From a virus (taxonomy: Duplodnaviria > Heunggongvirae > Uroviricota > Caudoviricetes): 25,606 nt of DNA. The notes beneath the pieces are model-generated. The model did not search any database. It had not been told where the DNA came from and saw only the letters and a program-made list of their open reading frames with translations. Location of the stretch: IMG/VR virus record IMGVR_UViG_648276669_000005, positions 1 to 25,606 of that record, one strand, 5' to 3'. This document shows positions 1-15,808 of the stretch, in pieces (positions within the stretch are counted from its first letter, which is position 1; each line of letters opens with the position of its first letter). Both the position numbers and the translations under genes were made by a program.

Positions 1-1053
1 TTACGGGGTAATGCCAACCGCTGCCGCCACTTTGTCGCCACTTGGCAGCGTTGCCAGAGGGTTGAAACGGAGCGCCGTTTCCAGATGATCCGGTGCCAGA
101 TGTGCGTAACGCATCGTCATTTTTATATCGTGATGCCCGAGAATTTTTTGTAAGGCCAGGATGTTTCCACCCGACATCATAAAATGCGCCGCAAACGTAT
201 GACGCAGAACGTGTGTCAGTTGACCGCGAGGGAGCACGATAGACGTTTTTTCCATCACGGATAAAAATTGAAAATAGCAGTCTTTAAAGAAATTGAACCC
301 ATCAAGTGCCATAATCTCTTCGTAAAGCTCTTTACTGATGGGAATGCTTCTGTTTTTCTTCCCCTTCGTTCTGACAAAGGTAATTCGGTATTTAGTCACC
401 TGTGAACGGGTAAGATTTATTGCTTCTCGCCAGCGTGCGCCTGTGCTTAAGCATATCTTGACTACCAGTGCCAGAATTGGGTCCTGACGTTTGCAATCAG
501 CCAGCAATTCAACAATCTGTTCATGGGTAAGCCATGCCATCTCTTTTTCTGCGATGGTGAATTTTCGCATGTTCTCCAGTGGGTTCGGATACGACCATTC
601 GCCCAGGCGGGATAGTTCGCTAAAAACACTACTTAGATAGCTTTGCTCCAGGTTAACGGTGACCGGGCTTGCTCCTTTCTTCCATTTTTCGCTGAAGTAG
701 ATCTCTCCTGTCAGGCGTTTATCTCGATAGTGGGCAAACATTTTAGAGGTGAGATCGGTTGCAATGGGATTTCCCAGAGCGTCAACCATCAACAGCAATT
801 TGTCATAGACATGCTGCCCAGCCGTCAGAGATTTACCATGTAGTTTGAACCATAGCTCAACCACGTCTTTCAGTGTTCGACGATCCACTGATTCACCCAG
901 CCAGGGTTTTGCTTCGGTTTCTTCCATCGTGTGACGCTCAAAAGCCAATGCTTCACCCTTAGTTGCAAACTGCTTACGCACACGCCGCCCATTGCGCCCG
1001 GCGGGGTAGCATTCACAAATCCATTTACCTGTGTTGAGTTTTCGTACTGCCAT
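1..1053 (-). CDS. int: P2/186-family tyrosine integrase
   Basis: 350 aa from first ATG (pos 1053, GAGGA RBS upstream); ORF-track start at 1080 is TTG. C-terminal HVLRH...HHDIKMTMRYAH fits the tyrosine recombinase R-H-R-Y catalytic pattern; resembles P2 Int as recalled. Stop at window pos 1-3, so att lies outside the window. Confidence 0.9.
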   Translation of the reverse strand: MAVRKLNTGKWICECYPAGRNGRRVRKQFATKGEALAFERHTMEETEAKPWLGESVDRRTLKDVVELWFKLHGKSLTAGQHVYDKLLLMVDALGNPIATDLTSKMFAHYRDKRLTGEIYFSEKWKKGASPVTVNLEQSYLSSVFSELSRLGEWSYPNPLENMRKFTIAEKEMAWLTHEQIVELLADCKRQDPILALVVKICLSTGARWREAINLTRSQVTKYRITFVRTKGKKNRSIPISKELYEEIMALDGFNFFKDCYFQFLSVMEKTSIVLPRGQLTHVLRHTFAAHFMMSGGNILALQKILGHHDIKMTMRYAHLAPDHLETALRFNPLATLPSGDKVAAAVGITP

Positions 1054-1135
1054 AAAAAAGTCCTCATGTCTGAGGACCAAATTTAACTGTATGTTTGAAC
1101 AGTGGTCAATGTTTAAAGATCTTCAATTAAACATT

Positions 1136-2467
1136 TCATTGGAGCAAGAAAACTTTTAAGGTGTTTTTGAATATTCTAACAGGGTCTTCTACACCTGCAT
1201 TTCCTTTTAAAATATGATAATCACTTATTTCAGCCCATCTGTTTTTTTCATCGTTTTCAGAAGGAAGTAAAGGAGAACCTTCTGGCATATATTTATAAGT
1301 TATACCAAATAATGCATAATAGTAGATGTTGATGTTATATTGATCTGTCTGATATGGGAGTCTATTAACACCGAAGAAATTGATTATTAATTGTGCATCT
1401 ATTTTATCTTCTACGTAGTTAAGGGCCAGTTCACGACCAAACGAATAAAGAATTACTGCAAGGGTTCGATAACAGCAATAGCCTGGTATAAATTTATTGC
1501 TGATTTCATTTTGAGATAAAATTTGATAAATTTCTAGATATCTTGATAAGGTTTCAACTTCCCGTAGCGACAAGCCTTTTAGTTCGATAAATTTTTGAAC
1601 TATATGAATACTACTTTCTCCAATTTCTTTTAGTCTTTCAGACTCGTTACATAGCATTCTAAAATGAGAGTTCGAAGCCAAAATTTTATCGTAATTGTTT
1701 TCAGTGAAAGTCACTGGCAGGCTGTAAGTGAATTTTATAAATTTATCAAGATATCTTTCTGAGTCAACACCTGCACCGTAAATATGATTTATTGATGCTT
1801 TCAATTGTGAGATGTTAGCAACTAACAAGAAGTTAAGATTTTCAGTGTCAAAAACATGTTTTATATTTTCGATGATAGAGATGGCAAAGCTTGGTTTACA
1901 ACGGTCAAGTTCGTCAATGATAATTGTTATTTTATTTTCGCTAGTTAGTTCAGCAAGTACTTCCTTGAGAGCAAGCAAATGTTTCTTTGCTTCAATATGA
2001 TCATCAAGCAGTGCTTCTACAGTACCATCTATAGCTGAGTTAGCCGCATCTTTAATAGCATCTTCGAATTCATCCGCAATATCATCTGCATTTTGTTTTA
2101 AAATCCACCCAGCGCCAGCTTTGAGTACAGTTTTAAGTCCAAATCTCAATGCTGGTAATGCCTTTGATATTAATTCCTTCTTTTCACTCTCTGGATATAA
2201 TGCAACTATTGCAGCCATTATAGTAAGTATGGGAGCATCATTATGATCTTCAGTAAATGCATCAATATATACTACTTTATGCCCAGATTCATTTTTTTCA
2301 ATCAATGCCGCTAATTTTTTTGAAAATTCGGTTTTACCGGTACCCCAGTCCCCATCGATAACAATAGGGGATATTTTTAAGGGGGACTCGAGTAAGCTTA
2401 TTATTTTTTCAGCAATGATTTTTCTATTATACTCATCTCTGTTTTCAAAAGTCATATCATTATTCAT
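1136..2467 (-). CDS. KAP-family-like P-loop NTPase (cargo gene)
   Basis: Walker A GDWGTGKT with the Trp typical of KAP NTPases, Walker B IIIDELDRC (KAP-type hhhhD[DE]LDR). No obvious TM insert. First ATG at 2467; 2476 is TTG. Strongly AT-rich relative to phage backbone. Confidence 0.6.
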   Translation of the reverse strand: MNNDMTFENRDEYNRKIIAEKIISLLESPLKISPIVIDGDWGTGKTEFSKKLAALIEKNESGHKVVYIDAFTEDHNDAPILTIMAAIVALYPESEKKELISKALPALRFGLKTVLKAGAGWILKQNADDIADEFEDAIKDAANSAIDGTVEALLDDHIEAKKHLLALKEVLAELTSENKITIIIDELDRCKPSFAISIIENIKHVFDTENLNFLLVANISQLKASINHIYGAGVDSERYLDKFIKFTYSLPVTFTENNYDKILASNSHFRMLCNESERLKEIGESSIHIVQKFIELKGLSLREVETLSRYLEIYQILSQNEISNKFIPGYCCYRTLAVILYSFGRELALNYVEDKIDAQLIINFFGVNRLPYQTDQYNINIYYYALFGITYKYMPEGSPLLPSENDEKNRWAEISDYHILKGNAGVEDPVRIFKNTLKVFLLQ

Positions 2468-2478
2468 ATGAAGCAACC

Positions 2479-2664
2479 TTAGTTTTTAGAACATATTTTC
2501 TTTGACTTGCTTGGCGTTCCATCATTGCAAACGAACTTCCCATCAGATGTACAATGTGAAACTCCCCCTTTCTTACCAGAACATGGATAATTTTTTGCAA
2601 AACTTGTAATAGGTAAAGTAATAAATAAACAAATAAGTAGGATATGTATAGATTTATAAAACAT
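2479..2664 (-). CDS. small secreted Cys-rich protein (signal peptide, about 38-aa mature part with 4 Cys)
   Basis: [23 protein letters not shown] looks like a Sec signal peptide; AAGGAA RBS 6 nt before the second ATG (2664). Mature part [38 protein letters not shown]. Stop 3 nt upstream of the NTPase start, so probably co-transcribed. Confidence 0.5.
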
Positions 2665-2687
2665 ATTTATTTCCTTATACATTAATT

Positions 2688-3251
2688 TTAATAATTGACG
2701 ATCGCGCTTCTAATTTTTCCTATGATATCAATTTCATCTATTTTGCATTCAAAGGAACTGCTGCCGCCATCGACATTTAGACGACGTCCCGGCAGTCTTG
2801 TCAGATTCCTGATAGCAACCTCGCCATCAATATCAACGATCCACTTACCATCACGTACATCCTCATAATCCGAATCACAGATAAACTCTGATGCGCCATC
2901 GATCACAACAAAAGGTTTTTTTAGTTTTTCAGGCAAAAAGTTGTTGTCGAAAATGTAGTAACCATCAGGAAGTAGTTTTCCGCTTGATAAAATCTTCCTT
3001 TCGATCTCTTTTGTGTTTTCTTTTTGTGAACTTTCTTTTGAACCTTGCCCAGTAGTTAGCCACTCTAGCGACGTGCCGGTTTCAAGTGCACATTGGATTA
3101 CCCATTCTGCCGGGAATGAATCACGCATATAGCGCGTGGCTAAGGTGCTTTTAGAAATGCCCAAATGATCACACAAAGCTTGTCTTGTCTTGAAACCATA
3201 GGCTTCAACCATGCGCTCTATGGCCCCACGACCGCCTTTTTCCAAATTCAT
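2688..3251 (-). CDS. cI: 186-type CI immunity repressor
   Basis: N-terminal ...VEAYGF...[16 protein letters not shown] and C-terminal ...[37 protein letters not shown] match my recollection of coliphage 186 CI. ATG at 3251 preceded by GGAG. Confidence 0.8.
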
Positions 3252-3376
3252 GGTCACTCCAAGTGAACTTTTACCTTGACGATTTCATGATGTGATCGTA
3301 TGTTTGCAGTGTTCACATAATACAAACGATCAGTATTCATCCTGATTAATCATTGCTAAAAGAGGAATGTTGCATC
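3252..3376. promoter_or_regulatory. lysis/lysogeny switch region between cI and apl (expected pR/pL promoters and CI operators)
   Basis: 125-bp divergent intergenic region between the repressor and the first early gene; contains partial inverted repeats (gatcgtatgtttg ... caaacgatcag). Operator positions not resolved. Confidence 0.4.
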
Positions 3377-3630: not shown

Positions 3631-4140
3631 ATGTTTGACTATCGCATTTCAAAACATCCCCATTTCAATGAAGCCTGCCGGGCCTTCGCCCTACGACACA
3701 ACATGGCGAAGCTGGCAGAGCGCGCAGGTATGAACGTTCAAACCTTGCGTAACAAGCTCAACCCGGAACAACCACACCAACTTACTGCGTCAGATATCTG
3801 GCAGTTAACCGATCTCACTGAAGACCCAACACTGGTTGATGGATTTCTGGCTCAGATTCACTGCCTGCCATGTATACCGGTAAATGAGGTGGCAAAAGAG
3901 AGACTGCCACATTACGTCATGAGTGCAACCGCAGAGATCGGGCGTGTTGCTGCAGGTGCGGTTTCTGGCGATGTAAAAACCAGTGCAGGCCGTCGCGATG
4001 CGATCAGCAGCATTAATTCTGTAACACGACTGATGGCGCTGGCGGCTGTTTCATTGCAGGCCCGTTTACAGGCTAATCCTGCGATGGCGAGTGCAGTTGA
4101 TACCGTGACTGGCCTCGGTGCTTCATTCGGTTTGCTGTGA
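3631..4140 (+). CDS. cII: CII-like lysogeny establishment activator (186 type)
   Basis: 169 aa, same length as 186 CII; N-terminal MFDYRISKHPHFNEACRAFALRHNMAKLAERAGMNVQTLRNKLNPEQPHQ resembles 186 CII as recalled; second gene of early operon. Confidence 0.65.
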   Translation: MFDYRISKHPHFNEACRAFALRHNMAKLAERAGMNVQTLRNKLNPEQPHQLTASDIWQLTDLTEDPTLVDGFLAQIHCLPCIPVNEVAKERLPHYVMSATAEIGRVAAGAVSGDVKTSAGRRDAISSINSVTRLMALAAVSLQARLQANPAMASAVDTVTGLGASFGLL

Positions 4141-4147
4141 GGTGCTT

Positions 4148-4444
4148 ATGCTGACGAAAGAACCATCATTTGCATCGCTGCTGATAAAACAAAGCCCGGC
4201 AATGCACTACGGTCACGGCTGGATCATGGGTGAGGATGGTAAACGCTGGCATCCATGTCATTCACAAGATGAATTGCTGTCTGAATTGACCACGAGGAAA
4301 CGGAGAAAGTCAAAATGTATGCAGCGGAAAGTGAAATGGTTTATCAGTTTCGTTACAGAGGGGAGAGTTATTCAGTACCTGAAGATGATTTGCTCTGTTG
4401 CTATCCGTCATTGTCGGGCGATGGCAGTTACTTTTTCGCGTTAA
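4148..4444 (+). CDS. hypothetical early protein (possibly Fil-like); 3' end uncertain
   Basis: ATG 4148 after GAGGTG; N-terminal part looks protein-like, C-terminal part is Cys/Arg-rich and overlaps the next ORF in another frame. Confidence 0.35.
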   Translation: MLTKEPSFASLLIKQSPAMHYGHGWIMGEDGKRWHPCHSQDELLSELTTRKRRKSKCMQRKVKWFISFVTEGRVIQYLKMICSVAIRHCRAMAVTFSR

Positions 4445-4539
4445 AGGATGGGACGTTTTTACGGGGAGAGCAGGTTAAAGAGACGATACGAAAAAATGTA
4501 TCTCCTCTTGAGCGTTACCGTAAGAACAAAGAACGATAG
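4315..4539 (+). CDS. hypothetical early protein
   Basis: 74 aa, GGAG RBS about 10 nt upstream of ATG 4315; protein-like composition. Confidence 0.45.
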   Translation: MYAAESEMVYQFRYRGESYSVPEDDLLCCYPSLSGDGSYFFALKDGTFLRGEQVKETIRKNVSPLERYRKNKER

Positions 4540-4561
4540 CTGCGTTTGGGGGATATGAAGT

Positions 4562-4903
4562 ATGGCAATTAATGGCGCTGCAGCAACTGTTCCATTAAGC
4601 CCCGGTGAACGCCTGAATGGACTTAATCACATTGCGGAGTTAAGGGCGAAAGTTTTTGGCCTGAATATTGAGTCAGAGCTTGAGCGGTTTATTAAAGATA
4701 TGCGTGATCCACGGGATATCAATAATGAACAAAATAAACGGGCACTGGCTGCCATATTCTTTATGGCAAAAATTCCAGCTGAACGTCATAGCATCAGCAT
4801 TAATGAGCTGACCACTGACGAAAAGCGGGAGCTGATTAAAGCAATGAATCATTTTCGTGCAGTGGTGAGCTTATTTCCCAGACGGCTAACCATGCCGAAT
4901 TAA
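4562..4903 (+). CDS. hypothetical early protein
   Basis: 113-aa ORF with ATG 4562 and G-rich RBS; in the early operon. Confidence 0.5.
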   Translation: MAINGAAATVPLSPGERLNGLNHIAELRAKVFGLNIESELERFIKDMRDPRDINNEQNKRALAAIFFMAKIPAERHSISINELTTDEKRELIKAMNHFRAVVSLFPRRLTMPN

Positions 4904-4970
4904 CCAACTAATGAAATTAATGGCGTAAACCCGCCGGGCATCCCTTTATCTAAATTCAGGAGAATTGATT

Positions 4971-5204
4971 ATGCGTAATATTGAAACCCTCACGACTAAA
5001 ACCGGACCGGATGACGCAGGGCTTAATATTTTACTGACAGAGGCTCGTCTGGAAGAACGCCGGGCAAGGGCTGAAGCAATGGCAGCTCGCCTTGATAGCC
5101 TGGCGTGTCATATCTCATCCCGTCAGCTAAACCACGTGGAAGCGGCAGAACTGCTGCGTGTGACTGCTGAAGCAATCCAGAACGAAGCGCAGGAGATCCA
5201 CTAA
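4971..5204 (+). CDS. hypothetical early protein
   Basis: 77 aa from ATG 4971 with AGGAGA RBS 8 nt upstream; the TTG at 4965 is an ORF-track artefact. Confidence 0.5.
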   Translation: MRNIETLTTKTGPDDAGLNILLTEARLEERRARAEAMAARLDSLACHISSRQLNHVEAAELLRVTAEAIQNEAQEIH

Positions 5205-5431
5205 TGGCTGATGCAATGGATCTCGTACAGCAGCGCGTTGAAGAAGAACGCCAGCGCCATATCCGTGCTGCCCGTGCCAAAACGCCGGGCGTGTCCCGCG
5301 TGCTTTGCGTTGAGTGTGAAGCGCCAATTCCGCCAGCACGCCGCCGTGCCATTCCGGGTGTGCAGCTTTGCATTACCTGTCAGGAAATCGCAGAGCTGAA
5401 AGGCAAACATTACAACGGGGGTGCTGTATGA
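5204..5431 (+). CDS. TraR/DksA-family C4 zinc-finger protein
   Basis: 75 aa with CVEC...(17 aa)...CITC four-cysteine spacing typical of TraR/DksA-like phage proteins; start overlaps previous stop. Confidence 0.6.
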   Translation: MADAMDLVQQRVEEERQRHIRAARAKTPGVSRVLCVECEAPIPPARRRAIPGVQLCITCQEIAELKGKHYNGGAV

Positions 5432-6285
5432 GCACCATCCTGAAATGGGCGGGAAATAAAACCGCCGTAATGTCCGAACTGAAAAAACATCTTCCTGCTG
5501 GTCCGCGACTAGTTGAACCTTTCGCGGGTTCCTGTGCTGTGATGATGGAGACGGATTATCCCTGCTATCTGGTTGCGGATATTAATCCTGATTTAATCAA
5601 CCTCTATAAAAAGGTTGCCGCTGATTGTGAATCGTTTATATCTCGCGCCAAAGTTTTATTTGAGATCGCAAACAGGGAGGTGGCTTATTACAACATAAGG
5701 CAGGAGTTTAATTACTCAACTGAAATTACTGATTTCATGAAAGCGGTATATTTCCTGTATCTCAATCGTCACGGTTACCGTGGGTTATGTCGCTATAACA
5801 AGAGCGGGCATTTCAACATTCCCTACGGTAATTATAAAAATCCGTATTTCCCTGAAAAAGAAATTCGCGCTTTTGCAGAAAAAGCCCAGCGAGCAACGTT
5901 TATCTGCGCCAGCTTTGATGAAACGCTGGCGATGTTGAAGGCGGGGGATGTGGTGTATTGCGATCCGCCTTATGACGGTACGTTTTCCGGCTATCACGCT
6001 GACGGCTTTACTGAAGATGACCAGTATCACCTGGCATCCGTTCTTGAACATCGGTCATCAGAAGGACATCCGGCCATTGTTTCTAACAGTGACACATCCC
6101 TGATCCGTTCGCTGTATCGCAATTTTACTCACCACTATATCAAGGTAAAACGCAGCATCGGCGCAGTAGCTGGTGAGAGTAAATCAGCAACAGAAATCAT
6201 TGCTGTTTCCGGGCCGCGCTGCTGGGTGGGATTTGATTATTCGCGTGGCGTGGATAGTTCTGCCGTGTACGGAGTACGTGCATGA
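5428..6285 (+). CDS. dam: DNA N6-adenine methyltransferase (Dam-like)
   Basis: N-terminal LKWAGNK...EPFAGSCAV (AdoMet-binding motif) and catalytic DPPY motif ([10 protein letters not shown]); ATG 5428, stop overlaps A start (ATGA). Confidence 0.75.
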
Positions 6286-8696
6286 GCCATGCCGATATGA
6301 GCAACTGCTGCGGCTTTAACGAGGCTGCCGCATCGTTCTCATGGAACAGCCCGAAAAAGGCCATTAACCCTTATCTGGACCCGGCGGAAGTTGCGCCGGT
6401 TTCTGCGCTTTCAAACCTGATCACTCTGTACGCTGCCGATAACGAGCAGGAACAACTGCGCCGCGAGGCACTGAGTGATCAGGTCTGGGAGCGTTATTTC
6501 TTTAATGAATCCCGTGATCCTGTCCAACGCGAAATAGAGCAGGATAAGCTCATTAGCCGGGCAAAGTTGGCGCATGAGCAGCAGCGTTTTAACCCGGACA
6601 TGGTCATTCTGGCAGACGTCAGCGCCCAGCCCTCCCATATCAGCAAGCCGCTGATGCAACGTATTGAATACTTCAGCAGCCTGGGCAGGCCAAAGGCTTA
6701 TTCCCGCTATTTACGTGAGACGATTAAGCCATGTCTGGAACGACTGGAGCATGTACGCGACAGCCAGCTATCTGCATCTTTTCGTTTTATGGCAAGCCAT
6801 GTAGGGCTGGACGGCCTGCTGATTCTGCCTGAAATGAGTCAGGATCAGGTGAAACGCCTGTCTACCCTTGTCGCTGCGCATATGAGCATGTGCCTTGATG
6901 CAGCTTGTGGTGATTTGTATGCCACCGATGACGTTAAGCCAGAAGAAATCCGCAAGACATGGGAAAAGGTGGCAGCGGAAACCCTGCGTCTGGATGTCAT
7001 CCCGCCTGCGTTTGAGCAACTCCGCCGGAAAAGAAACCGCCGTAAACCCGTGCCCTATGAACTCATTCCGGGTTCGCTGGCGCGTATGTTGTGCGCCGAC
7101 TGGTGGTACCGGAAATTATGGAAAATGCGTTGCGAATGGCGGGAAGAGCAGTTGCGTGCTATCTGCCTGGTCAGCAAAAAAGCATCTCCCTATGTCAGCT
7201 ATGAAGCCGTGATGCATAAACGTGAGCAGCGCCGCAAGTCACTGGAGTTTTTCCGTTCTCATGAACTGGTGAACGAAGAGGGCGACACGCTGGATATGGA
7301 AGACGTGGTAAACGCCAGCAGCAGCAACCCGGCGCACCGCCGCAATGAGATGATGGCCTGTGTTAAAGGTCTGGAGCTTATCGCGGAAATGCGCGGTGAC
7401 TGCGCCGTTTTCTACACCATTACCTGTCCGTCACGTTTCCATTCCACGCTCAATAACGGCAGACCAAACCCAACCTGGACAAATGCGACGGTAAGACAAA
7501 GCAGCGATTATCTGGTCGGCATGTTTGCTGCATTTCGTAAGGCGATGCACAAAGCCGGGTTGCGCTGGTATGGCGTGCGGGTGGCTGAGCCGCATCATGA
7601 CGGTACAGTTCACTGGCACCTGTTGTGTTTCATGCGCAAAAAAGACCGCCGCGCCATTACTGCATTGTTGCGTAAGTTTGCCATCCGTGAAGACCGCGAG
7701 GAACTGGGTAATAACACTGGTCCACGCTTTAAATCTGAGCTGATAAACCCGCGCAAAGGAACGCCGACAAGCTACATCGCGAAATACATCAGTAAGAACA
7801 TTGACGGGCGTGGTCTGGCTGGCGAGATCAGCAAGGAAACGGGTAAATCCCTGCGTGATAACGCTGAATACGTTAATGCCTGGGCGTCTCTGCATCGTGT
7901 TCAGCAATTCCGCTTCTTTGGTATTCCGGGACGTCAGGCTTACCGTGAACTTCGCTTGCTGGCTGGTCAGGCGGCAAGGCAACAGGGTGACAAAAAAGCA
8001 GGTGCGCCGGTACTGGATAACCCGCGCCTTGATGCCATTCTGGCTGCTGCTGATGCTGGTTGTTTTGCCACCTACATCATGAAGCAGGGCGGCGTACTGG
8101 TTCCCCGCAAATATCACCTCATCAGAACCGCTTATGAAATCAACGAAGAGCCAACCGCCTATGGCGATCACGGTATTCGTATTTATGGCATCTGGTCACC
8201 CATTGCAGAGGGCAAGATCTGCACTCATGCAGTGAAGTGGAAAATGGTTCGTAAGGCCGTTGACGTTCAGGAGGCGGCAGCCGACCAGGGCGCTTGCGCC
8301 CCTTGGACTCGTGGCAATAACTGTCCCCTTGCTGAAAATTTGAACCAACAGGAGAAAGATAAATCAGCTGATGGGGACCCCAGAACGGACTTTACCCGCA
8401 TGGATGACAAGGAGTTGCACGATTACCTGCACAGTATGAACAAAAAGGAGCGCCGGGAACTGGCTGCAAGGTTACGCCTGGTGAAACCGAAACGGCGTAG
8501 AGACTACAAACAGCGAATTACAGATCATCAGCGACAGCAGCTCGTCTATGAACTGAAGTCCAGAGGATTTGATGGCAGCGAGAAAGAGGTCGATTTACTC
8601 CTTCGCGGTGGCAGTATTCCGTCAGGAGCAGGCCTGCGTATCTTCTATCGGAACCAGCGTTTGCAGGAAGATGATAAGTGGCGGGATCTGTATTAA
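6282..8696 (+). CDS. A: replication initiation endonuclease gpA (rolling-circle type)
   Basis: 804 aa; HUH-type metal motif (TVHWHLLCF) and tandem-tyrosine motif ([10 protein letters not shown]) characteristic of P2 A protein. Confidence 0.85.
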
Positions 8697-9489: not shown

Positions 9490-9596
9490 TTACTAATAAT
9501 AACCTTACAATGTACACTACCGATTGAATTTTCCATAGTTGGCCTTTGGCTCTACTTACCATCTATGTTTATGTATTTTATCAAAATGGACTAAAA

Positions 9597-11489
9597 ATGA
9601 ACAATACGTACATCAAAGACTATATAGAATATTACCTTAGCCTTACAACTGAACCTCAATACGCCATTATGCTTAAAGGTGCTTGGGGATCAGGTAAAAC
9701 TTGGTTCATTGAACAAGTTCTTGAAGAATATAAGCAGAAGAATTCAGAGTTTAAATTTCTAAAAGTGAGTTTGTATGGCGTCAACTCTATTAAGCAGATT
9801 GAAGATGAGTTCTATCGTCAACTTCATCCTGTCCTATCAAACAAAGCCCTTATCTTTGGTGCAAATGTACTAAAAAATACGCTTAAGGCTACTTTCAAGA
9901 TCGATCTCAATGGCGATAATAAATCTGACGTTGATGTCAATACCAATGTTCCCACCATTAATCTTAACGATTTTAGTAGAAAACCAGATGGTTTTGTGCT
10001 GGTCTTTGATGATATCGAGAGAGCTGGTATAGATTTACCAATTTTATTTGGATATATAAACCACTTTGTAGAAGTAAACGGATACAAAGCGATCTTGGTT
10101 GCCAATGAAGAAGAAATAATCAATAGAGAAAAGCGAATAAATAATGATGATGAGAAATCTAGCAGCGAATATATGAGAACAAAAGAAAAGCTTGTTGGTA
10201 AAACATTTGAAGTAACGTCAGATTTACATAGTGCTTGTAATGTTTTTTTGGGCGTAATTAGCAGTTTACACGTTGCTAATATATTTAAAGAAGATATGCA
10301 GGCCATAGAAGACATCTATGTGTCGGCGAAATATAATAATCTAAGACACTTGAGGCAGTTCTTTCTTGATGTACAACGCATCATTTCCCTTTTGGGAAAT
10401 AAATATGTCAGCAACGACGATTTTATGAGGGTATTTTTCCAGCAGTTGTTAATTTTCTCGATAGAGTACCGGGGAGGGAACCTTAACTACGAGGATTTCG
10501 ATTCAATCAGCAATGTTAATTATGGTATGTTTTTAGGTAAAGAGCGTACCAAAACTAAGTATGACATGATCGCCGAGAAATATTCATCTCCTGTATTAAC
10601 CGAGAAGTTACTGGATGGTGCGTACTGGAGGGAGCTAATCTGTGATGGAAAGGTAACGAGTGAACTTCTCGCTCAGTTGGATATTACGCGATTTTTTAGA
10701 AGCACCGATGCCCAAGCATGGGAGTATTTGTGGAACTATCGAGAACTTAATGAAACTATGCTTAATGAGCAGTACGCCATTGCCAAGGATAATCTATTTT
10801 CAGGTAAGATCACTTCCTTAGGTGAACTCCTGATGACCGCGAGTATTTTGCTGGACATGGCGAAAGAAGGTCTAACAACAGATGATGTTCATGATCTCAT
10901 AAATGAGACAAAACAGAATATAAATAATTATTATAATAGACTTAGAGCTGAAGATATACATAAGGAATATGCGCAAACGCATTATAACGAATTAAGGGCA
11001 TGGCGTGGCTTTGGTTTTCTTGACAGGGATAGCGATGAATTCAAACTCATTATTGAGCATATTGAGATAGCGAAGAAGAAACGGTTTGATGAATCAATTC
11101 CGGAATTTGCGTTGCAGTTCAGCGATGAGTTGCAAAGGGGAAACTTATCGTTTGTATCTGAATTGAGTCATTCTAATAATAGGCAGTTAAATCTTCATAA
11201 CGTGCCTTTTTTACACTTGGTTCCTCCTGAAGTTTTCATTGAAAGCTATAGGAAACTTGACCCAGTCCTCATGAGGAAACTGGCATTTAGCTTGCGGAAT
11301 CGTTATTCTGATGGGGATGCTAGAACCAGACTGACCGAAGAATACAACTGGTTGATTAACCTAAAAGAGATAGCTGTAGATTTCACTCAAAACGCAGCCA
11401 ATAACTCCTTTCAGGTTTTTCACGTAAAGTTTTTTATTGACTATGTACTAACTAGCGCAATCAAATTCTTTACTGAGGGAACTGATTAA
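9597..11489 (+). CDS. KAP-family-like P-loop NTPase, 630 aa (hotspot cargo; candidate defence protein)
   Basis: Walker A GAWGSGKT (KAP-type Trp), Walker B VLVFDDIERAG, large C-terminal region without recognisable motifs. First ATG at 9597; track start 9546 is TTG. AT-rich. Confidence 0.6.
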   Translation: MNNTYIKDYIEYYLSLTTEPQYAIMLKGAWGSGKTWFIEQVLEEYKQKNSEFKFLKVSLYGVNSIKQIEDEFYRQLHPVLSNKALIFGANVLKNTLKATFKIDLNGDNKSDVDVNTNVPTINLNDFSRKPDGFVLVFDDIERAGIDLPILFGYINHFVEVNGYKAILVANEEEIINREKRINNDDEKSSSEYMRTKEKLVGKTFEVTSDLHSACNVFLGVISSLHVANIFKEDMQAIEDIYVSAKYNNLRHLRQFFLDVQRIISLLGNKYVSNDDFMRVFFQQLLIFSIEYRGGNLNYEDFDSISNVNYGMFLGKERTKTKYDMIAEKYSSPVLTEKLLDGAYWRELICDGKVTSELLAQLDITRFFRSTDAQAWEYLWNYRELNETMLNEQYAIAKDNLFSGKITSLGELLMTASILLDMAKEGLTTDDVHDLINETKQNINNYYNRLRAEDIHKEYAQTHYNELRAWRGFGFLDRDSDEFKLIIEHIEIAKKKRFDESIPEFALQFSDELQRGNLSFVSELSHSNNRQLNLHNVPFLHLVPPEVFIESYRKLDPVLMRKLAFSLRNRYSDGDARTRLTEEYNWLINLKEIAVDFTQNAANNSFQVFHVKFFIDYVLTSAIKFFTEGTD

Positions 11490-11553
11490 CTTTTTGTTGA
11501 TTAACATAGGCAATATTATTAGAAGTACTAGGGATAGTCAGTAAAATTATTAA

Positions 11554-11590
11554 CGTCCGCTTCGCTCAAAGCGGACTTTGTGCTTTATAA
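11554..11590 (+). terminator. rho-independent terminator after the NTPase gene
   Basis: gtccgctt-cgctca-aagcggac perfect 8-bp stem-loop followed by tttgtgcttt. Confidence 0.55.
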
Positions 11591-11774
11591 AAACGAGAGT
11601 TTTGTTTTTCAAGCGGTCATTCGGTTACGGGATTTCACTTCCCCCGTAAGTGCATGACTATGCCGCATGAGATCGCATGATCGTTTGCGGATCGTTTTTG
11701 CTAAGGCACGCCAGAACTGGTGGGATTTTGCGTAGATCATGCGCCTGCATGAAAACCGCTACATAAAGCGGGCA

Positions 11775-11793
11775 GGCGTGGCGGGGATACGAG
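11775..11793. other. candidate cos site (cohesive-end sequence of P2/186-type phage)
   Basis: ggcgtggcggggatacgag followed by cgcgcgct; closely resembles my recollection of the P2/186 19-nt cohesive ends (GGCG[A/T]GGCGGGGAAAGCA[C/T]) followed by a GCGCGC element. From memory only. Confidence 0.4.
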
Positions 11794-11919
11794 CGCGCGC
11801 TTAAGGATGAATTGAAGTTGATTTAATTTTTCGACATGGATAATCTTAACTACGTATGATTATTGATAAAAAATAAACATAAACAATTGTAGCGGATCTT
11901 AAAACTTATTAGGATTAGT

Positions 11920-12975
11920 ATGCTTAAAACAAATAAGGTATTTATTGACACACAAACGTACGTAAAGGCTGGTCTTCATTTTGAGGGGGTAGCATTTAAA
12001 GCTTTCCATGAATTATGTGCGAAAGGTGATTTAGTCTTAATTACAACTACAGTTGTAGAGAGAGAAGTAAAAGGTAAAATAGAGGAATCAATAAAGGATG
12101 CTCTGCAGGCTATAAACACAGTACAAAGAAAAGCTAGGCTTTTGAATAGTATTGATAATGGACCGCTCCATGGTTTTTTTCAGCAATTTAACGAACATGA
12201 AATTCACGAAGCAGCACAAAAAGTTTTTGATGATTTTTTGAAAGGATGTCACGCCAAATTAGCTACAATAGAAGTGATAGATCTTAATGAGGTTTTAGAT
12301 AAATACTTTGGCAAAGAACCACCATTTGGGCAAAATAAGAAAAAAAGTGAGTTTCCTGATGCAATCACTTTAGCTGCGGTAGAGCGATTTGTTAATGATG
12401 AAGATGTGTATATCATTTCTGAGGATAGTGACTTAAAAAATTATTGTGATGGTAAAAACAATCTTCATCAAATTGATTCACTTGATAAGTTTCTAGGTGA
12501 ATACAATACGCATACAAACGAATTAAGTAATAAATTGATGCAGTTTATCGAAAGCAAACGTGAAGACATAAGAGCGGACGTAATTGCCCAACTCAATGAT
12601 GCCGATGGATATAACGTTTCAACTTGGGAAGACGCTGAATTGGATTCATTTGAAGTCGTCAATATTGATGACTTTGAACCATCAATAATTAAGATTGACA
12701 ATAATTATTGTCTAGCGACCTTCTCTGTTTCTGTAGATTTTGAAGTTACTGTTTCTGGTCCAGACTTTAATAATGGGTATTGGGATAGCGAAGATAAAGT
12801 AATGATTCCAATGGAGACAACCACACGAACTGAAGTTCAAGAGATTAGTTTCGATATTGAAATTGAAGTTATGTATGAAATCGAGGATGGTGAATTAACA
12901 GATATCGCATTTGATGTGAATATTGATAAGTTATCCCGAGGGATTGAGTTCTCTATTGAAGAAAATAATTTTTAA
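11920..12975 (+). CDS. hypothetical protein with N-terminal PIN-like nuclease fold and acidic C-terminal domain (cargo)
   Basis: 351 aa; N-terminus KVFIDTQTYV (PIN motif-1-like hhhDT), VVEREV, later DAITLAAVERFVNDEDVYIISEDSDL giving the spaced acidic residues of PIN domains; C-terminal third very D/E-rich. AT-rich with own AT-rich upstream region. Confidence 0.45.
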   Translation: MLKTNKVFIDTQTYVKAGLHFEGVAFKAFHELCAKGDLVLITTTVVEREVKGKIEESIKDALQAINTVQRKARLLNSIDNGPLHGFFQQFNEHEIHEAAQKVFDDFLKGCHAKLATIEVIDLNEVLDKYFGKEPPFGQNKKKSEFPDAITLAAVERFVNDEDVYIISEDSDLKNYCDGKNNLHQIDSLDKFLGEYNTHTNELSNKLMQFIESKREDIRADVIAQLNDADGYNVSTWEDAELDSFEVVNIDDFEPSIIKIDNNYCLATFSVSVDFEVTVSGPDFNNGYWDSEDKVMIPMETTTRTEVQEISFDIEIEVMYEIEDGELTDIAFDVNIDKLSRGIEFSIEENNF

Positions 12976-12993: not shown

Positions 12994-13020
12994 GGCATCA
13001 TTGTGATGCCATTGGGTTTT
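12994..13020 (+). terminator. stem-loop terminator between convergent PIN-like gene and Q
   Basis: ggcatca-ttg-tgatgcc perfect 7-bp hairpin followed by attgggtttt. Confidence 0.45.
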
Positions 13021-14044
13021 ATAATGTATATATTTCAAAATTTATAATTTCATGACCAAGCCATCTGTTTATTTCCATGAATCTTTTTTGAAGTGGTAAT
13101 AGTTCATTTCTTACGAAGACGCAGCTCGCCTTCTCCACATCACCAAAACCCCCAACATTATTCGGCAAAATTCCCATCATCTGAGGCGGTACGCGGTGTG
13201 CCGCCATCATGTCATCACGGCTGACGTTCTTGATGTTCAGAAATTCATCCTTCGCCGCGACTTCTGACAACGGGATGATCTGAAGCCCGTCCTTTTTGCC
13301 GTTAGGCGAGTACATAAACAGGTTGCGGAAGTTGCCAGGGCCTTTGGCGCTTTTCATCGCATTGCGGAGGTTGTTCACATCCTCCTGGTTCTGCGCGGCA
13401 TCGGTCATGTACATGATGAAGCCTGCATGGCTGCCGTTAATGTAATACTTCCGGCGGAACAGCGTGGCGGACTCGTTGAGCAGGGCTGACGGAATGGCAG
13501 AAAGATAACCTGGTAGGCCGTAGATCTCCTGGTTGATGTCAGGTTCCATCAGATGAAAAATGCTGCCTTTCGTGAACTGATACGGCTGGGTTGTCATACC
13601 GTATTGCACAAACCAGTAGGTATCCAGGTCTAACCCGCGTCGGGTGTATTTTGCCAGCGCAGGCTCAAGGGCGATAACTTCACCGAAGCGGTTCGTGCGT
13701 TTCTCCAGGTAGGCGTTACCAAATACCAGGTAGTCCTGCACAAAACGTGAAAAAGCCTGCTGACTGAGCAGCGGGTGAGGGATATAGGTACTGGTCAGAA
13801 TGTTGCACTTTACTGCAATCGGGGAACTGTGATGCACGGCAGCGCGGAAGGTGCGCGCCAGTCCGTCAAAGCTGACGGGCGGCTCATACCAACGGTCCAT
13901 CTGTACGCATTCCACATAGTCCAGTAATTCTCGGCGGTCCAGAACAGGAACGGGATCGCCGAAGCTGAATGCTTCGGCTGTAGTTTGACTTTTAAGCTGG
14001 ATCTGATTCGTCGCCGCAGCGCGGTTCTTCTTACTCTTTCCCAT
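13019..14044 (-). CDS. Q: portal protein gpQ
   Basis: 341 aa, matching P2 Q (about 344 aa) in size and position, convergent with hotspot and upstream of terminase; ATG 14044 overlaps P stop. Confidence 0.85.
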   Translation of the reverse strand: MGKSKKNRAAATNQIQLKSQTTAEAFSFGDPVPVLDRRELLDYVECVQMDRWYEPPVSFDGLARTFRAAVHHSSPIAVKCNILTSTYIPHPLLSQQAFSRFVQDYLVFGNAYLEKRTNRFGEVIALEPALAKYTRRGLDLDTYWFVQYGMTTQPYQFTKGSIFHLMEPDINQEIYGLPGYLSAIPSALLNESATLFRRKYYINGSHAGFIMYMTDAAQNQEDVNNLRNAMKSAKGPGNFRNLFMYSPNGKKDGLQIIPLSEVAAKDEFLNIKNVSRDDMMAAHRVPPQMMGILPNNVGGFGDVEKASCVFVRNELLPLQKRFMEINRWLGHEIINFEIYTL

Positions 14045-15808
14045 CAAAAAATCTCCACAATATTGCTGGCATTGGCGGATTCGCCCTGCAGCGGTTCGTT
14101 AAACAGTGCGTGCATCGTTGCCCAGGCCAGATCGGCGTGGCTGGCTTCTTCGCTGCGGCTGGCTTCATAGGTCGGGCGGTTGCCGCTGGCGGTGGTAGCG
14201 CGACGGATTGCCATAAATGATTGCGCAATGTCGGTGTGCCCGGCGTCAAACTCCAGACGGCGGTGGCTGATAATGTCGTAGGCCTTGAGCACCAGGGCGT
14301 TTTTAACGTTGGGGTTGTAGACAAACTCCCGGACGGCAGGAAAGAATGCTTTCACGTTCTCGTAAACCCCGTGACCAACGCCGGTTGAGTCGATACCGAT
14401 ATAAGTCACGTTGTACTGTTCGGTCAGTTTTTTGATGGCGTCAGCCTGAGCGCGGAAGTCCATCCCGCGCCACTGGTGACGCTCAAGAATGCGGAATTTA
14501 CCGCCCGGTACGGCTGGCGGTGCCACCACCACGCATCCGGCACTGTCGCCGTTCTGAGTACCTTTTGCGGGGTCATAACCGATCCATACTTCGCGCCAGC
14601 CAAACGGGCGCAGGGCCAGTGCATGAAAGTCGGTCCAGACTTCCCAACTGTCCACCATGCACGCCTGCAGTTCGCTGAGCGGGAACACGGACGCGAGATC
14701 GTCCACGAACTCACACATCAGCAGGTTCTGGTATTCGTCCGGGCTGTATTCCATGCGCAACTGGTCAAGGTCGAACAGGTTACAGCCGCCGCGCACCGCA
14801 TCTTCCACGGTGACTATCTGGCGGTATTGTCCGTCTGCGCACAGCAGGCCGGGGGCCAGATTGCTGTGGGACAGGTCGATGTCCACCTTATCGGCTTTGT
14901 TGCGCCCACGGTTGAACAGCGCACCGGACCAGAACGGATAAGCACTGTGTGTCAGGCTGGATGGCGTGGAAAAATAGGTCTGTCGCCATTTTTTGTGAAT
15001 AGCCATACCGGAAGCCACTTTGCGCAGCTCCTGGAATTTCGGTATCCAGAAATATTCATCCAGATACAGGTTGCCGTGATAACTCTGGGCCGTGCGGGCA
15101 TTGGTGCCGAGGAAGTAAAGCGTGGCCCCGTTAGGAAGCACCATCGGATCGCCTTTCAGCTCCACCTCCACTTCTTTAGCGAAGTCGATGATGTACTGCT
15201 TAAAGACGTGGGCCTGTGCCTTGCTGGCGGAAAGGAAAATCTGGTTACGTCCGGTAAGCAGAGCGTCAATCAGGGCTTCACGGGCAAAGTAAAAGGTCGC
15301 GCCGATCTGGCGTGACTTCAGCAGGTTGCGGATGCGGTTGGTTTTTCCGGCTTCCCACCAGTGGCGCTGGTAGTTGAACATGGAGGAATGGAAGATTTCT
15401 TCCAGCTTCTCAATCTGCTCATCGGTGAAAACATTCTTTTCCGGCTGACGGCGCGGGCCTTTGTTGCGGTTGGCGACGTTAGGGTTTAAGTCGGCTTCGT
15501 TGCCGCCATTGTTAAACTTGCCGATCCGCGCGTGGCGTTCCGACTGGCGCGCCAGCAGGTCAATCTCTTTGAAATCTTTCCCTTCTTTGTGCTCCTTCAT
15601 AATGAGCTGGCAGTAGCGTGCGGCGGTGGTGAGCTGCATCTGATCCAGCGGCCCATAGTCACCCCACTGCGCGTTTTTTCCAGCTGTGAACGGTTGCAAC
15701 TTTCTCGCCCAGCATTTCAGCAATGCGGGCTACGCGGTATCCCTGAAAGTACAGCAGCATGGCCTGCCGACGGGGATCGAGATCTGCGGGTGTCAGTGTG
15801 GTGTTCAT
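14044..15808 (-). pseudogene. P: terminase large (ATPase) subunit gpP with apparent +1 frameshift near 15674-15679
   Basis: Frame A from ATG 15808 encodes MNTTLTPADLDPRRQAMLLYFQGYRVARIAEMLGEKVATVHSWKKR, matching recalled P2 gpP N-terminus, then stops; frame B (ORF 14044-15723) carries the remaining 559 aa. Frames switch at an A6 run (T6 on plus strand). Could be a sequencing error. Confidence 0.8.

What the first reader, a model, noticed from the sequence alone, without database searches (positions are those of the whole stretch)
1136..2687. Two-gene AT-rich insertion between cI and int: second KAP-type NTPase plus small secreted Cys-rich peptide
In 186-type phages as I recall them, cI and int are adjacent and co-transcribed in the lysogen. 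Here two same-strand genes are wedged between them: a 61-aa signal-peptide protein with a 4-Cys mature part, then 3 nt later a 443-aa NTPase (GDWGTGKT, IIIDELDRC). Placement downstream of cI suggests expression during lysogeny, typical of superinfection-exclusion or defence cargo. Pairing a cytoplasmic NTPase with a secreted mini-protein is unusual.
Basis: partly seen in the sequence, partly recalled or inferred. Interest (0 to 1): 0.8.

Follow-up and report, generated by a model that had tools for sequence, protein, structure and literature searches.

The report
Two independent prophage cargo genes
Between the repressor and integrase genes of a 186-like prophage sit two separable passenger genes, a common secreted cysteine-rich peptide of unknown function and a rarer candidate anti-phage NTPase, in a slot that related prophages fill with many different defence genes, so this is a fairly ordinary example of a known pattern.

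Summary
A low-GC block (32.5% against about 48-50% in the flanks) lies between cI and int on the same strand. It holds a 61-aa signal-peptide protein with four cysteines and a 443-aa KAP P-loop NTPase.

The two genes are not an obligate pair. The peptide is a YdcA-family member. It sits alone directly after cI in 595 of 5426 complete E. coli genomes, and unannotated in Haemophilus phages HP2 and S2. The NTPase matches PADLOC candidate PDC-S20 over its full length (E 1e-171). It occurs in the same slot without the peptide, and also in lambdoid prophages between Q and the lysis genes. The exact pair is in 9 of 5426 genomes.

In related prophages the slot holds PD-Lambda-1, AbiU, HEC-01, OLD-like and other cargo, so it is a defence hotspot. 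Such hotspots are already described for P2-related phages.

Most likely reading: two independent genes expressed in the lysogen from the repressor operon. The NTPase would be a single-gene STAND-like sensor and switch whose C-terminal third varies between relatives. The peptide would be a periplasmic, disulfide-bonded factor acting on the cell envelope. It resembles one lobe of Legionella Dis2.

Function is untested for both genes. Novelty: new member of a known kind.

The parts
2688..3257 (-). cI immunity repressor (186 type), first gene of the presumed lysogenic operon; left anchor of the cargo slot
   Evidence: Pfam Phage_CI_repr 3.1e-33 and Phage_CI_C 6.2e-29. This cI allele is found in the same 9 E. 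coli genomes as the cargo.
2479..2664 (-). YdcA-family gene, 61 aa precursor. Signal peptide is aa 1-23 (nt 2664-2596), mature 38-aa four-Cys basic peptide is nt 2595-2482, stop is 2481-2479
   Evidence: phrog_6000 6e-26. NCBIfam PRK10040/YdcA NF007463 scores 86.8 bits, below the 93 cut-off. The identical protein P0121 carries a precomputed PF27300 YdcA hit. RefSeq names it 'YdcA family protein'. SD AAGGAA lies before the ATG. Variable N-terminus with invariant Ala at -1, and a conserved mature part. dN/dS 0.02-0.07.
1136..2467 (-). KAP-family P-loop NTPase, 443 aa, cytosolic, PADLOC candidate family PDC-S20
2330..2353 (-). Walker A motif GDWGTGKT (aa 39-46)
   Evidence: Sequence. G39, W41, G42, G44 and K45 are invariant in 65 homologues.
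1898..1924 (-). Walker B and KAP signature IIIDELDRC (aa 182-190)
   Evidence: Sequence. D185, E186, L187, D188, R189 and C190 are invariant in 65 homologues.
2000..2140 (-). Conserved but low-confidence insertion between Walker A and B (aa 110-156), at the position where membrane-bound KAP NTPases carry a transmembrane hairpin
   Evidence: pLDDT below 50 for residues 110-156. Conservation there is as high as in the core (0.66). Not hydrophobic enough for a membrane span.
1139..1507 (-). Variable helical C-terminal domain of the NTPase (aa 321-443), proposed sensor or specificity part
   Evidence: Mean pairwise identity is 0.22 here against 0.53 for aa 1-320 among 65 homologues. All-helical and confidently modelled.
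1054..1155 (-). int-proximal anchor of the slot: spacer conserved across prophages with different cargo. It contains the hairpin GGTCCTCA-GACA-TGAGGACT (1078-1059) followed by T6, directly before the int ATG and covering int's GAGGA ribosome-binding site
   Evidence: Homology with prophages carrying other cargo resumes at 1112-1155. Terminator-like site. Fold z-score -3.6. Sequence.
1..1053 (-). Integrase (350 aa), right anchor of the slot
   Evidence: Pfam Int_N 1.8e-32 and Phage_integrase 5e-22. 92-94% DNA identity to integrases of prophages with other cargo.
3258..3352 (.). cI-apl intergenic switch region, the presumed site of the face-to-face pR and pL promoters that would drive the cargo in the lysogen (inferred by analogy with 186)
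   Evidence: Layout of 186. A pR-like hexamer pair lies at 3276-3304 on the plus strand. pL itself was not detected by the consensus scan.

Best explanation
The block consists of two separable passenger genes. [quoted passage not shown]

Expression (inferred). Both are most likely transcribed with cI from the lysogenic promoter, so they would be made in every lysogen.

Gene 1, the peptide. It is a YdcA-family precursor that is exported by the Sec pathway. Cleavage after SFA gives a 38-residue, lysine-rich peptide with two probable disulfides. It is the common resident of this slot. Its place right after cI is old within P2-related phages. It resembles one lobe of Dis2, a disulfide-pinned protein that sits under the outer membrane on the Legionella Dot/Icm secretion machine. 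I propose that it acts in the envelope, most plausibly by hindering entry of competing phages. Other lysogenic-conversion roles are not excluded.

Gene 2, the NTPase. It is a soluble KAP-family NTPase of the PADLOC candidate family PDC-S20 and is a rarer addition next to the peptide gene. I propose that it is a self-sufficient anti-phage protein of the STAND or RdrA type. Its variable C-terminal helical domain would recognise a phage product. The conserved NTPase core would then switch or oligomerise and use ATP to stop the infection, by remodelling a phage or host complex or by draining ATP.

Shown: gene structure, family membership, separability, the hotspot and purifying selection. Inferred: co-transcription, export, defence activity and mechanism.
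For: Separability.
- The peptide is alone after cI in L092-L099, in 73 of 80 viral contigs and in 595 of 5426 E. coli genomes.
- The NTPase is in the slot without the peptide in L006-L008, L019-L023, L148 and L130.
- The NTPase appears with a different upstream gene in Yersinia.
- Homologues at about 45% identity lie between antiterminator Q and the holin in lambdoid prophages.
- The NTPase ORF is exactly the extra DNA relative to a peptide-only prophage.

Hotspot.
- 31 species-level loci carry 399-3311 nt of low-GC cargo between cI and int, nearly all on the cI strand.
- This cargo includes PD-Lambda-1 (5e-118), AbiU (5.8e-127), HEC-01A and B, PDC-M11A, PDC-M18A, an OLD/AriA-like protein and PDC-S20.
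- Rousset 2022 describes a cI-int hotspot in K139-like phages (PMC9122126).
- A 2026 survey places 8% of P2 defence systems between integrase and primase (PMC13586616).

NTPase.
- Full-length PDC-S20 match. PDC families are candidates found embedded in BREX, DISARM or type I RM loci (bioRxiv 10.1101/2024.01.29.577857).
- The catalytic motifs are invariant.
- The C-terminal third is far more variable than the core.
- The nearest solved folds are RdrA of RADAR and BrxC of BREX.
- Other KAP NTPases have been shown to block phages and need Walker B and their C-terminal region to do so (PMC13552941). The P4-borne KAP gene 'Reve' is another tested example.

Peptide.
- Variable hydrophobic N-terminus with invariant Ala at -1, and a nearly invariant mature part.
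- dN/dS 0.02-0.07.
- An unannotated copy in HP2 and S2 has its start overlapping the cI stop.
- The only PDB sequence hit is Dis2 (E 8.6e-6). Dis2 is also the top, though weak, structural hit. Its location and disulfides come from PMC8486379.

Operon. Phage 186 has pL-cI-int in one transcript, and K139 has PL-cI-orf2-glo-int. Here the spacers are 23, 11 and 82 nt, with no terminator-like site before the end of the NTPase gene.
Against: - Nothing has been tested experimentally for this NTPase family. PDC systems are explicitly untested candidates, and no paper in the library mentions PDC-S20.
- No effector domain is recognisable in the 443-aa protein, so the step that kills or blocks is a guess.
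- Transcription from pL is inferred by analogy. The consensus scan did not find pL, and promoter-like sites in the region are no more frequent than in shuffled sequence.
- The peptide's function is unknown. E. coli YdcA itself has no described role in the papers found.
- The similarity to Dis2 is weak, and Dis2 is dispensable for its own machine.
- In my samples the peptide was seen next to three divergent NTPase subclades (L012-L018, L024). Among enterobacterial loci it was never seen next to other cargo types. That leaves room for some link between the two genes.
Confidence: 0.62

Rival explanations
1. The two genes form one functional system. The secreted peptide, or its unexported precursor, works with the cytosolic NTPase, for example as an envelope sensor, a guarded decoy or an antitoxin-like partner.
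For: They are adjacent on the same strand with only 11 nt between them. The pair is kept in Escherichia, Enterobacter, Buttiauxella and other hosts while the NTPase diverges to 68-88% identity. The peptide gene is also found next to NTPases of the 71% and 56% subclades. The cI allele, peptide and NTPase occur in the same 9 E. coli genomes.
Against: Each gene occurs alone in the same slot, and the peptide does so far more often than the pair: 595 against 9 genomes and 73 against 5 viral contigs. NTPase-only prophages exist in several genera, and homologues occur in lambdoid prophages. PADLOC models PDC-S20 as a single-gene candidate. The NTPase has no membrane segment, so mature peptide and NTPase would be in different compartments. 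In HP2 the peptide is followed by an unrelated secreted protein. The L016 peptide has the signal peptide of the peptide-only allele, which suggests reassortment.
Confidence: 0.1
2. The NTPase is not a defence gene. It serves the prophage itself, for example in lysogeny maintenance, replication control or an addiction function, or it is a selfish passenger with no benefit to the host.
For: No member of PDC-S20 has been tested. The fold is also close to the replication initiators Cdc6/Orc and DnaA and to the transposition regulator TnsC. No effector domain is present.
Against: It is absent from most relatives of this prophage, which instead carry known defence systems in the same slot. The family also sits in the classical lambdoid moron site and was picked up embedded in BREX, DISARM and RM loci. 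The C-terminal third evolves fast, as expected for a sensor in an arms race. Several other KAP NTPases have been shown to block phages.
Confidence: 0.12
3. The peptide is not an exclusion factor. It is a lysogenic-conversion factor that acts on the host envelope, on other bacteria or on an animal host, such as a defensin-like antimicrobial peptide, an outer-membrane stabiliser or a colonisation factor.
For: It is small, basic (8 Lys, 2 acidic residues) and has four Cys. Family members occur as core chromosomal genes (E. coli ydcA; NCBIfam PRK10040), on small mobilizable Acinetobacter plasmids of about 4 kb, and in Moraxella, Acinetobacter and Pseudomonas phages at other positions. The family has 412 representative clusters, including two- and three-repeat forms. 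Its solved relative Dis2 is a structural accessory protein, not an exclusion protein.
Against: Its fixed place directly after the immunity repressor in two distant branches of P2-related phages is the place where K139 carries its periplasmic exclusion protein Glo. The slot otherwise holds anti-phage genes. None of this is decisive.
Confidence: 0.35

Closest known systems
PADLOC candidate family PDC-S20 (single-gene KAP NTPase; 'guilt-by-embedding' candidates of Payne et al., bioRxiv 10.1101/2024.01.29.577857)
   Same: Full-length HMM match (E 1.1e-171, aa 4-444 of 446). About 440-450 aa with one KAP NTPase domain. Occurs as a stand-alone gene.
   Different: The family was defined from genes embedded in BREX, DISARM and type I RM loci. 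Here it is prophage cargo in the lysogenic operon. No member has been tested.
Tested KAP-NTPase defence proteins: EF_KAP and relatives (PMC13552941), Tmn (bioRxiv 10.1101/2022.08.21.504612), 'Reve' from P4 satellites (PMC13586616), PifA of the F plasmid
   Same: KAP P-loop core with Walker A and B, followed by a C-terminal region without known domains. All are carried on mobile elements. Weak PifA model hit (2e-15).
   Different: EF_KAP and Tmn have transmembrane helices, and this protein has none. PifA is 720 aa and matches only over the NTPase core. This protein is much shorter, with a C-terminal region of only about 125 aa. Sequence relatedness to Reve could not be checked.
RdrA of the RADAR system (PDB 8fnt, 8fnu) and BrxC of BREX (9zll)
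   Different: Sequence identity is only 9-15%. RdrA is about 790 aa and works with the deaminase RdrB, and BrxC works within BREX. No such partners are encoded here.
Defence hotspots of P2-related prophages (Rousset et al. 2022, PMC9122126; NAR 2026, PMC13586616)
   Same: Variable, low-GC, defence-rich cargo between conserved phage genes. A cI-int hotspot is described for K139-like Vibrio phages, and an integrase-to-primase hotspot for P2-like prophages. This window also carries cargo in the classical GpA-GpQ hotspot.
   Different: The published main hotspots in E. coli P2-like phages are GpA-GpQ and the tail region. The cI-int slot of the enterobacterial 186-like lineage is only covered as a minor class (8%). 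Its frequent occupant, the YdcA-family peptide, is not discussed in the passages I read.
Vibrio phage K139 lysogenic operon: cI, orf2 (BRCT), glo, int
   Same: Same slot, same strand, one cytoplasmic and one periplasmic product. Glo is annotated as a periplasmic protein involved in phage exclusion.
   Different: No sequence similarity between Glo and the YdcA-family peptide (hhalign probability 2.4%). orf2 is a BRCT protein, not a KAP NTPase.
YdcA family (Pfam PF27300, NCBIfam PRK10040) and Legionella Dis2 (Lpg0823, PDB 7muc chain AN)
   Same: Signal peptide plus the motif [20 protein letters not shown]. The identical protein carries a PF27300 hit. The profile hits Dis2 at E 8.6e-6, with both Dis2 lobes aligned. 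Dis2 is also the top structural match (37% identity over 35 columns).
   Different: It scores below the NCBIfam equivalog cut-offs (86.8 against 93, and 60 against 118), so it is a paralogue of E. coli YdcA. Dis2 has two lobes and five disulfides and belongs to a type IVB secretion machine. This peptide has one lobe, and no secretion system is nearby.

Membership tests
KAP family P-loop NTPase (Pfam PF07693) | Match to the family HMM above the gathering score | tested here: met
   174.5 bits against a cut-off of 20, E 3.8e-51, profile positions 2-290 of 293.
KAP family P-loop NTPase (Pfam PF07693) | Walker A GxxGxGK[ST] and Walker B hhhhDE followed by LDRC | tested here: met
   GDWGTGKT at aa 39-46 and IIIDELDRC at aa 182-190. 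Both are invariant in 65 homologues.
KAP family P-loop NTPase (Pfam PF07693) | Transmembrane helices inserted in the NTPase domain (present in many members but not all; my recollection of Aravind et al. 2004) | tested here: not met
   The highest 19-residue Kyte-Doolittle mean is 1.1. The insertion at aa 110-156 is conserved but polar or amphipathic. Soluble members are accepted in the family, so this does not exclude membership.
PADLOC PDC-S20 | Full-length match to a PDC-S20 model | tested here: met
   PDLC04956 E 1.1e-171, aa 4-444 against model positions 1-447 of 450.
PADLOC PDC-S20 | Works as a single gene and protects against phages | not testable with these tools
   It occurs alone in the slot in several lineages, which is consistent with a single-gene system. 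PDC systems are untested candidates.
QatABCD (QatA) | QatA equivalog score and neighbouring qatB, qatC and qatD | tested here: not met
   NCBIfam QatA scores 42.9 bits against a cut-off of 600. The neighbours are the peptide gene and int.
RADAR (RdrA) | RdrA-type ATPase next to the RdrB adenosine deaminase | tested here: not met
   [not shown]
PifA (F plasmid) | Full-length similarity to the 720-aa PifA | tested here: not met
   The PADLOC PifA model is matched only at positions 11-255 of 720, E 2e-15.
YdcA family (PF27300 / NCBIfam PRK10040) | Match to the family models | tested here: inconclusive
   A precomputed PF27300 hit exists for the identical protein P0121, and RefSeq names it 'YdcA family protein'. 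The NCBIfam equivalog models are matched below cut-off: 86.8 against 93, 60 against 118 and 45.8 against 168. The local Pfam copy lacks PF27300. It is a family member but not an equivalog of E. coli YdcA.
YdcA family (PF27300 / NCBIfam PRK10040) | Cleavable Sec signal peptide and conserved four-Cys mature part | tested here: met
   The hydrophobic core has a Kyte-Doolittle 15-residue mean of 2.5, followed by SFA|KN. Ala at -1 and the Cys columns are invariant or nearly so. Export itself was not measured.
Dis2 (Legionella Dot/Icm outer-membrane cap) | Two similar lobes with five disulfides, as part of a type IVB secretion system | tested here: not met
   There is only one lobe-like unit, the similarity is weak (E 8.6e-6; Foldseek E 0.45), and no secretion genes are nearby. 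It is a distant relative of the domain, not a Dis2 orthologue.
Prophage defence hotspot | Conserved flanks with many alternative, low-GC, defence-enriched inserts at the same position | tested here: met
   31 species-level loci fall into more than 25 cargo clusters. GC is 0.28-0.41 against 0.38-0.51 in the flanks. Hits to known and candidate systems. The int-side anchor at 1112-1155 is shared.
Periplasmic superinfection-exclusion proteins (e.g. K139 Glo) | Blocks infection by a superinfecting phage at the envelope | not testable with these tools
   Only the position and the predicted location are shared. There is no homology to Glo.

The most novel reading that the evidence does not exclude
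The YdcA-family peptide may be a widespread but overlooked product of lysogens. It would be a one-lobe relative of the secretion-system protein Dis2 that P2-related prophages place directly behind their repressor, from E. coli to Haemophilus. It would work in the periplasm as a new class of superinfection-exclusion or envelope-gating factor. The NTPase next to it would be a separate cytosolic second line of defence.
Probability: 0.25. Interest if true: 0.65.

Novelty: new member of a known kind. Interest (0 to 1): 0.38.

Why it matters
This adds one more documented defence hotspot, inside the lysogenic operon of enterobacterial 186-like prophages. It also gives independent genomic support to PDC-S20, an untested candidate, as prophage-borne defence cargo that recurs in two unrelated phage families.

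The more useful by-product is the peptide. It is a 38-residue secreted product under very strong purifying selection and is present in about one in nine complete E. coli genomes. It sits right after the repressor, is unannotated in the reference Haemophilus phages HP2 and S2, and has no known function. Both genes are small and easy to test alone.

Tried and rejected
- Literature search for 'PDC-S20': no paper.
- Search for a role of E. coli YdcA: only incidental mentions.
- Profile of the NTPase against PDB sequences: no hit at E 0.01, so the fold comparison was needed.
- Supplementary files of the 2026 P2/P4 survey, to compare with the KAP system 'Reve': not held.
- Transmembrane segments in the NTPase, which could have linked it physically to a periplasmic peptide: none.
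- Own promoter for the cargo: promoter-like sites are no more frequent than in shuffles (12 against 9.1 +/- 3.1), and none lies in the 23-nt gap after cI.
- Homology between the peptide and K139 Glo: none.
- Lipoprotein reading of the peptide: rejected, because the first Cys is at +5 rather than +1 of the mature part.
- Link of the YdcA family to conjugative transfer regions, prompted by the Dis2 hit and a 'Conjugal t...' source name: only 3 of 46 plasmid records are conjugative, and most are small mobilizable or non-mobilizable Acinetobacter plasmids.
- The idea that the two KAP NTPases of the window are duplicates: rejected, since they are similar only around the P-loop.
- The AlphaFold model of the peptide has only moderate confidence (pLDDT 69.5). 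The structural match to Dis2 (E 0.45) is therefore supportive at best.
Full report
WHAT IS THERE

The window is a 186/P2-like prophage of the Peduoviridae. Four genes run in a row on the minus strand. They are cI (2688-3257), a small ORF (2479-2682), a large ORF (1136-2476) and int (1-1080). On the other side of cI lie apl/cox and cII on the plus strand.

With the start codons that have a ribosome-binding site, the small gene is 2479-2664: 61 aa, with AAGGAA before the ATG. The large gene is 1136-2467: 443 aa, with TAAGGT before the ATG. int starts at 1053. RefSeq makes the same calls in identical prophages.

The spacers are 23 nt (cI to peptide), 11 nt (peptide to NTPase) and 82 nt (NTPase to int). 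GC is 0.325 in the block, 0.479 in int and 0.497 downstream.

The quoted motifs are present: GDWGTGKT at aa 39-46 and IIIDELDRC at aa 182-190. In phage 186 itself, cI and int overlap by one base and share the pL operon.

THE LARGE GENE

It is a KAP-family P-loop NTPase (Pfam 3.8e-51). It matches the PADLOC candidate family PDC-S20 over its whole length (E 1.1e-171). It gives only partial, weak matches to PifA and QatA.

PDC families are untested candidates. They were found because they are embedded in BREX, DISARM or type I RM loci (bioRxiv 10.1101/2024.01.29.577857). No paper in the library names PDC-S20.

The protein has no membrane segment. This sets it apart from the tested membrane KAP proteins EF_KAP and Tmn.

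An AlphaFold model built from 65 homologues is good (pLDDT 81.7, pTM 0.78). The exception is residues 110-156, an insertion between Walker A and B that is nevertheless well conserved.

Among homologues, the catalytic residues are invariant. The last 123 residues are much more variable than the first 320, with mean pairwise identity 0.22 against 0.53. That pattern is expected for a conserved switch joined to a fast-evolving recognition domain.

THE SMALL GENE

It belongs to the YdcA family. The evidence is phrog_6000 at 6e-26, NCBIfam PRK10040 models matched below their equivalog cut-offs, a precomputed PF27300 hit on the identical protein, and the RefSeq name 'YdcA family protein'.

The alignment shows a variable hydrophobic N-terminus that ends in an invariant alanine. 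A nearly invariant mature part follows: [34 protein letters not shown]. The mature part has dN/dS of 0.02-0.07 with synonymous sites near or at saturation, so this is a real gene under strong constraint. It is not a lipoprotein, because the first Cys is at +5.

A profile of the family hits one solved protein, Legionella Dis2 (Lpg0823, PDB 7muc chain AN), at E 8.6e-6. Both Dis2 lobes align to the motif. The same chain is the top, though weak, structural match of a moderate-confidence model.

Dis2 sits under the outer membrane on the Dot/Icm cap. It has two similar lobes pinned by five disulfides and had no structural relatives (PMC8486379). It is dispensable for the machine (PMC12716638).

The YdcA domain family has 412 representative clusters, including forms with two and three repeats. 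No function for E. coli YdcA turned up.

ARE THE TWO GENES A PAIR?

No, or at least not an obligate one. All of the following arrangements occur in the cI-to-int slot, on the same strand.

- Peptide plus NTPase: the window; Enterobacter ludwigii with the NTPase at 80% identity; Buttiauxella at 68%, where the small gene was not called but is present; and viral contigs L012-L018, L024 and L035.
- NTPase directly after cI with no small gene: E. coli, the 55% clade, and also Serratia and Citrobacter loci.
- A 160-aa BRCT-like protein, then the NTPase: Yersinia, Hafnia and Brenneria.
- Peptide alone: L092-L099.

Counts in 5426 complete E. coli genomes:

| Arrangement | Genomes |
|---|---|
| Exact pair | 9 |
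| Peptide-only cassette | 595 |
| 55%-clade NTPase | 15 |

Of 80 viral contigs with the peptide gene, 78 have it right after cI. In 73 of them int follows about 200 nt later, and 5 carry the NTPase.

Against a peptide-only prophage, homology runs from apl through the peptide gene (3700-2481) and resumes at 1145. The NTPase ORF is therefore exactly the extra DNA.

Homologues at about 45% identity sit in lambdoid prophages between antiterminator Q and the holin, the classical moron site.

In the Haemophilus P2-related phages HP2 and S2, an unannotated 60-aa family member starts on the cI stop codon. An unrelated secreted 254-aa protein follows it, and then int.

Family members also occur in Moraxella, Acinetobacter and Pseudomonas phages and on Acinetobacter plasmids of about 4 kb.

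One caveat remains. In my enterobacterial samples the peptide was seen alone or with an NTPase, with three divergent NTPase subclades, and never with other cargo. A loose association therefore cannot be excluded without a proper census.

THE SLOT IS A HOTSPOT

A scan of one genome per species with a cI profile gave 65 loci. In 31 of them, 399-3311 nt of low-GC DNA lie between cI and an int related to this one, and nearly all cargo is on the cI strand. In 13 loci with a more distant int (about 53% identity), the two genes abut as in 186.

The cargo falls into more than 25 clusters. They include:
- PD-Lambda-1, in 7 loci and also in phage vB_EcoM-813R9;
- PDC-S20 NTPases, in 5 loci;
- HEC-01A and B;
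- AbiU;
- PDC-M11A;
- PDC-M18A;
- an OLD/AriA-like ATPase.

The int-side boundary is shared at 1112-1155.

This agrees with the literature. Rousset et al. describe a cI-int hotspot in K139-like Vibrio phages (PMC9122126). A 2026 survey places 8% of P2 defence systems between integrase and primase, and it validates a KAP single-gene system, Reve, from P4 satellites (PMC13586616).

K139 carries cI, orf2 (BRCT), glo (periplasmic, phage exclusion) and int in one lysogenic operon. A cytoplasmic protein next to a periplasmic one in this slot is therefore not new. Glo is not homologous to the peptide.

HOW IT MOST LIKELY WORKS

Shown: two real genes under selection, family membership, separability, and location in a defence hotspot.

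Inferred, step 1. Both genes are read from the lysogenic promoter with cI. This rests on the 186 and K139 operon layouts, the tight spacing, and the absence of a terminator-like site before the end of the NTPase gene. The consensus scan did not identify pL, and promoter-like sites are not enriched, so this needs RNA data.

Inferred, step 2. The NTPase acts alone as a STAND/RdrA-like switch. Its variable C-terminal domain binds a phage product. The core then oligomerises or hydrolyses ATP to abort or block infection. Other KAP NTPases need Walker B and their C-terminal region to protect (PMC13552941). The effector step is unknown, because no effector domain is visible.

Inferred, step 3. The peptide is exported, disulfide-bonded and acts in the envelope. 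Superinfection exclusion is the most plausible role given its position. Another conversion function is nearly as likely.

VERDICT

The defence-cargo reading is reasonable. The 'unusual pair' reading is not supported.

The NTPase is a new prophage-borne member of a catalogued candidate family, in a kind of hotspot already known. The most interesting loose end is the very common, strongly conserved YdcA-family peptide placed behind the repressor.

Interest is 0.38. Novelty: new member of a known kind.

Noticed in passing
window 9546-12975: A second low-GC cargo block (GC 0.33-0.40) lies between the replication gene A (6282-8696) and the portal gene (13019-14047), which is the classical P2 GpA-GpQ hotspot. 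It holds a 647-aa KAP NTPase matching PADLOC PDC-S49 (2e-160) and a 351-aa PIN_12-domain protein (1.6e-25) with no PADLOC hit. This one prophage therefore carries two unrelated KAP NTPases.
   Followed up: partly
window 1054-1135 (minus strand): The spacer before int folds strongly (z -3.6). The 8-bp hairpin GGTCCTCA-GACA-TGAGGACT, followed by six T, ends 5 nt before the int ATG and contains int's GAGGA ribosome-binding site. It could terminate the lysogenic transcript or mask int translation. It lies in the stretch conserved among prophages with different cargo.
   Followed up: partly
[not shown]
   Followed up: yes
L009 4494-4976, L109 6574-7059, L117 6575-7057: In Yersinia, Hafnia and Brenneria prophages the slot NTPase is preceded by a 160-aa protein. 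Its C-terminus matches the end of PADLOC PDC-S48 (4e-10) and looks like a BRCT domain. K139 also has a BRCT protein (orf2) right after cI.
   Followed up: no
L001 (E. coli ST131 strain 4224, NZ_CP103592.1) 3843-5973: In this genome the same prophage's int lies 73 nt from an ompF gene annotated as a pseudogene missing its N-terminus. The prophage may therefore have integrated into or next to the 5' end of the porin gene. Relatives with 92-97% identical int sit next to rcdA/ybjJ instead.
   Followed up: no
window 2688-3257: The cI allele of this prophage occurs in exactly the same 9 of 5426 E. coli genomes as the peptide-NTPase block, and its GC (0.42) is intermediate. Immunity region and cargo seem to travel as one module.
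   Followed up: partly
L252 (Acinetobacter pittii plasmid pApiMCR53a, 3916 bp) 728-904: A YdcA-family gene is one of only five genes on a 3.9-kb MOBQ mobilizable plasmid, and similar small plasmids exist in other Acinetobacter species. This suggests that the peptide is beneficial on its own.
   Followed up: no
proteins P0163-P0166, P0175, P0185: Some YdcA-domain proteins carry two or three tandem copies of the Cys-rich unit (127-197 aa), like the two-lobed Dis2. The 61-aa phage form is therefore the minimal one-unit version of a repeat-forming module.
   Followed up: no
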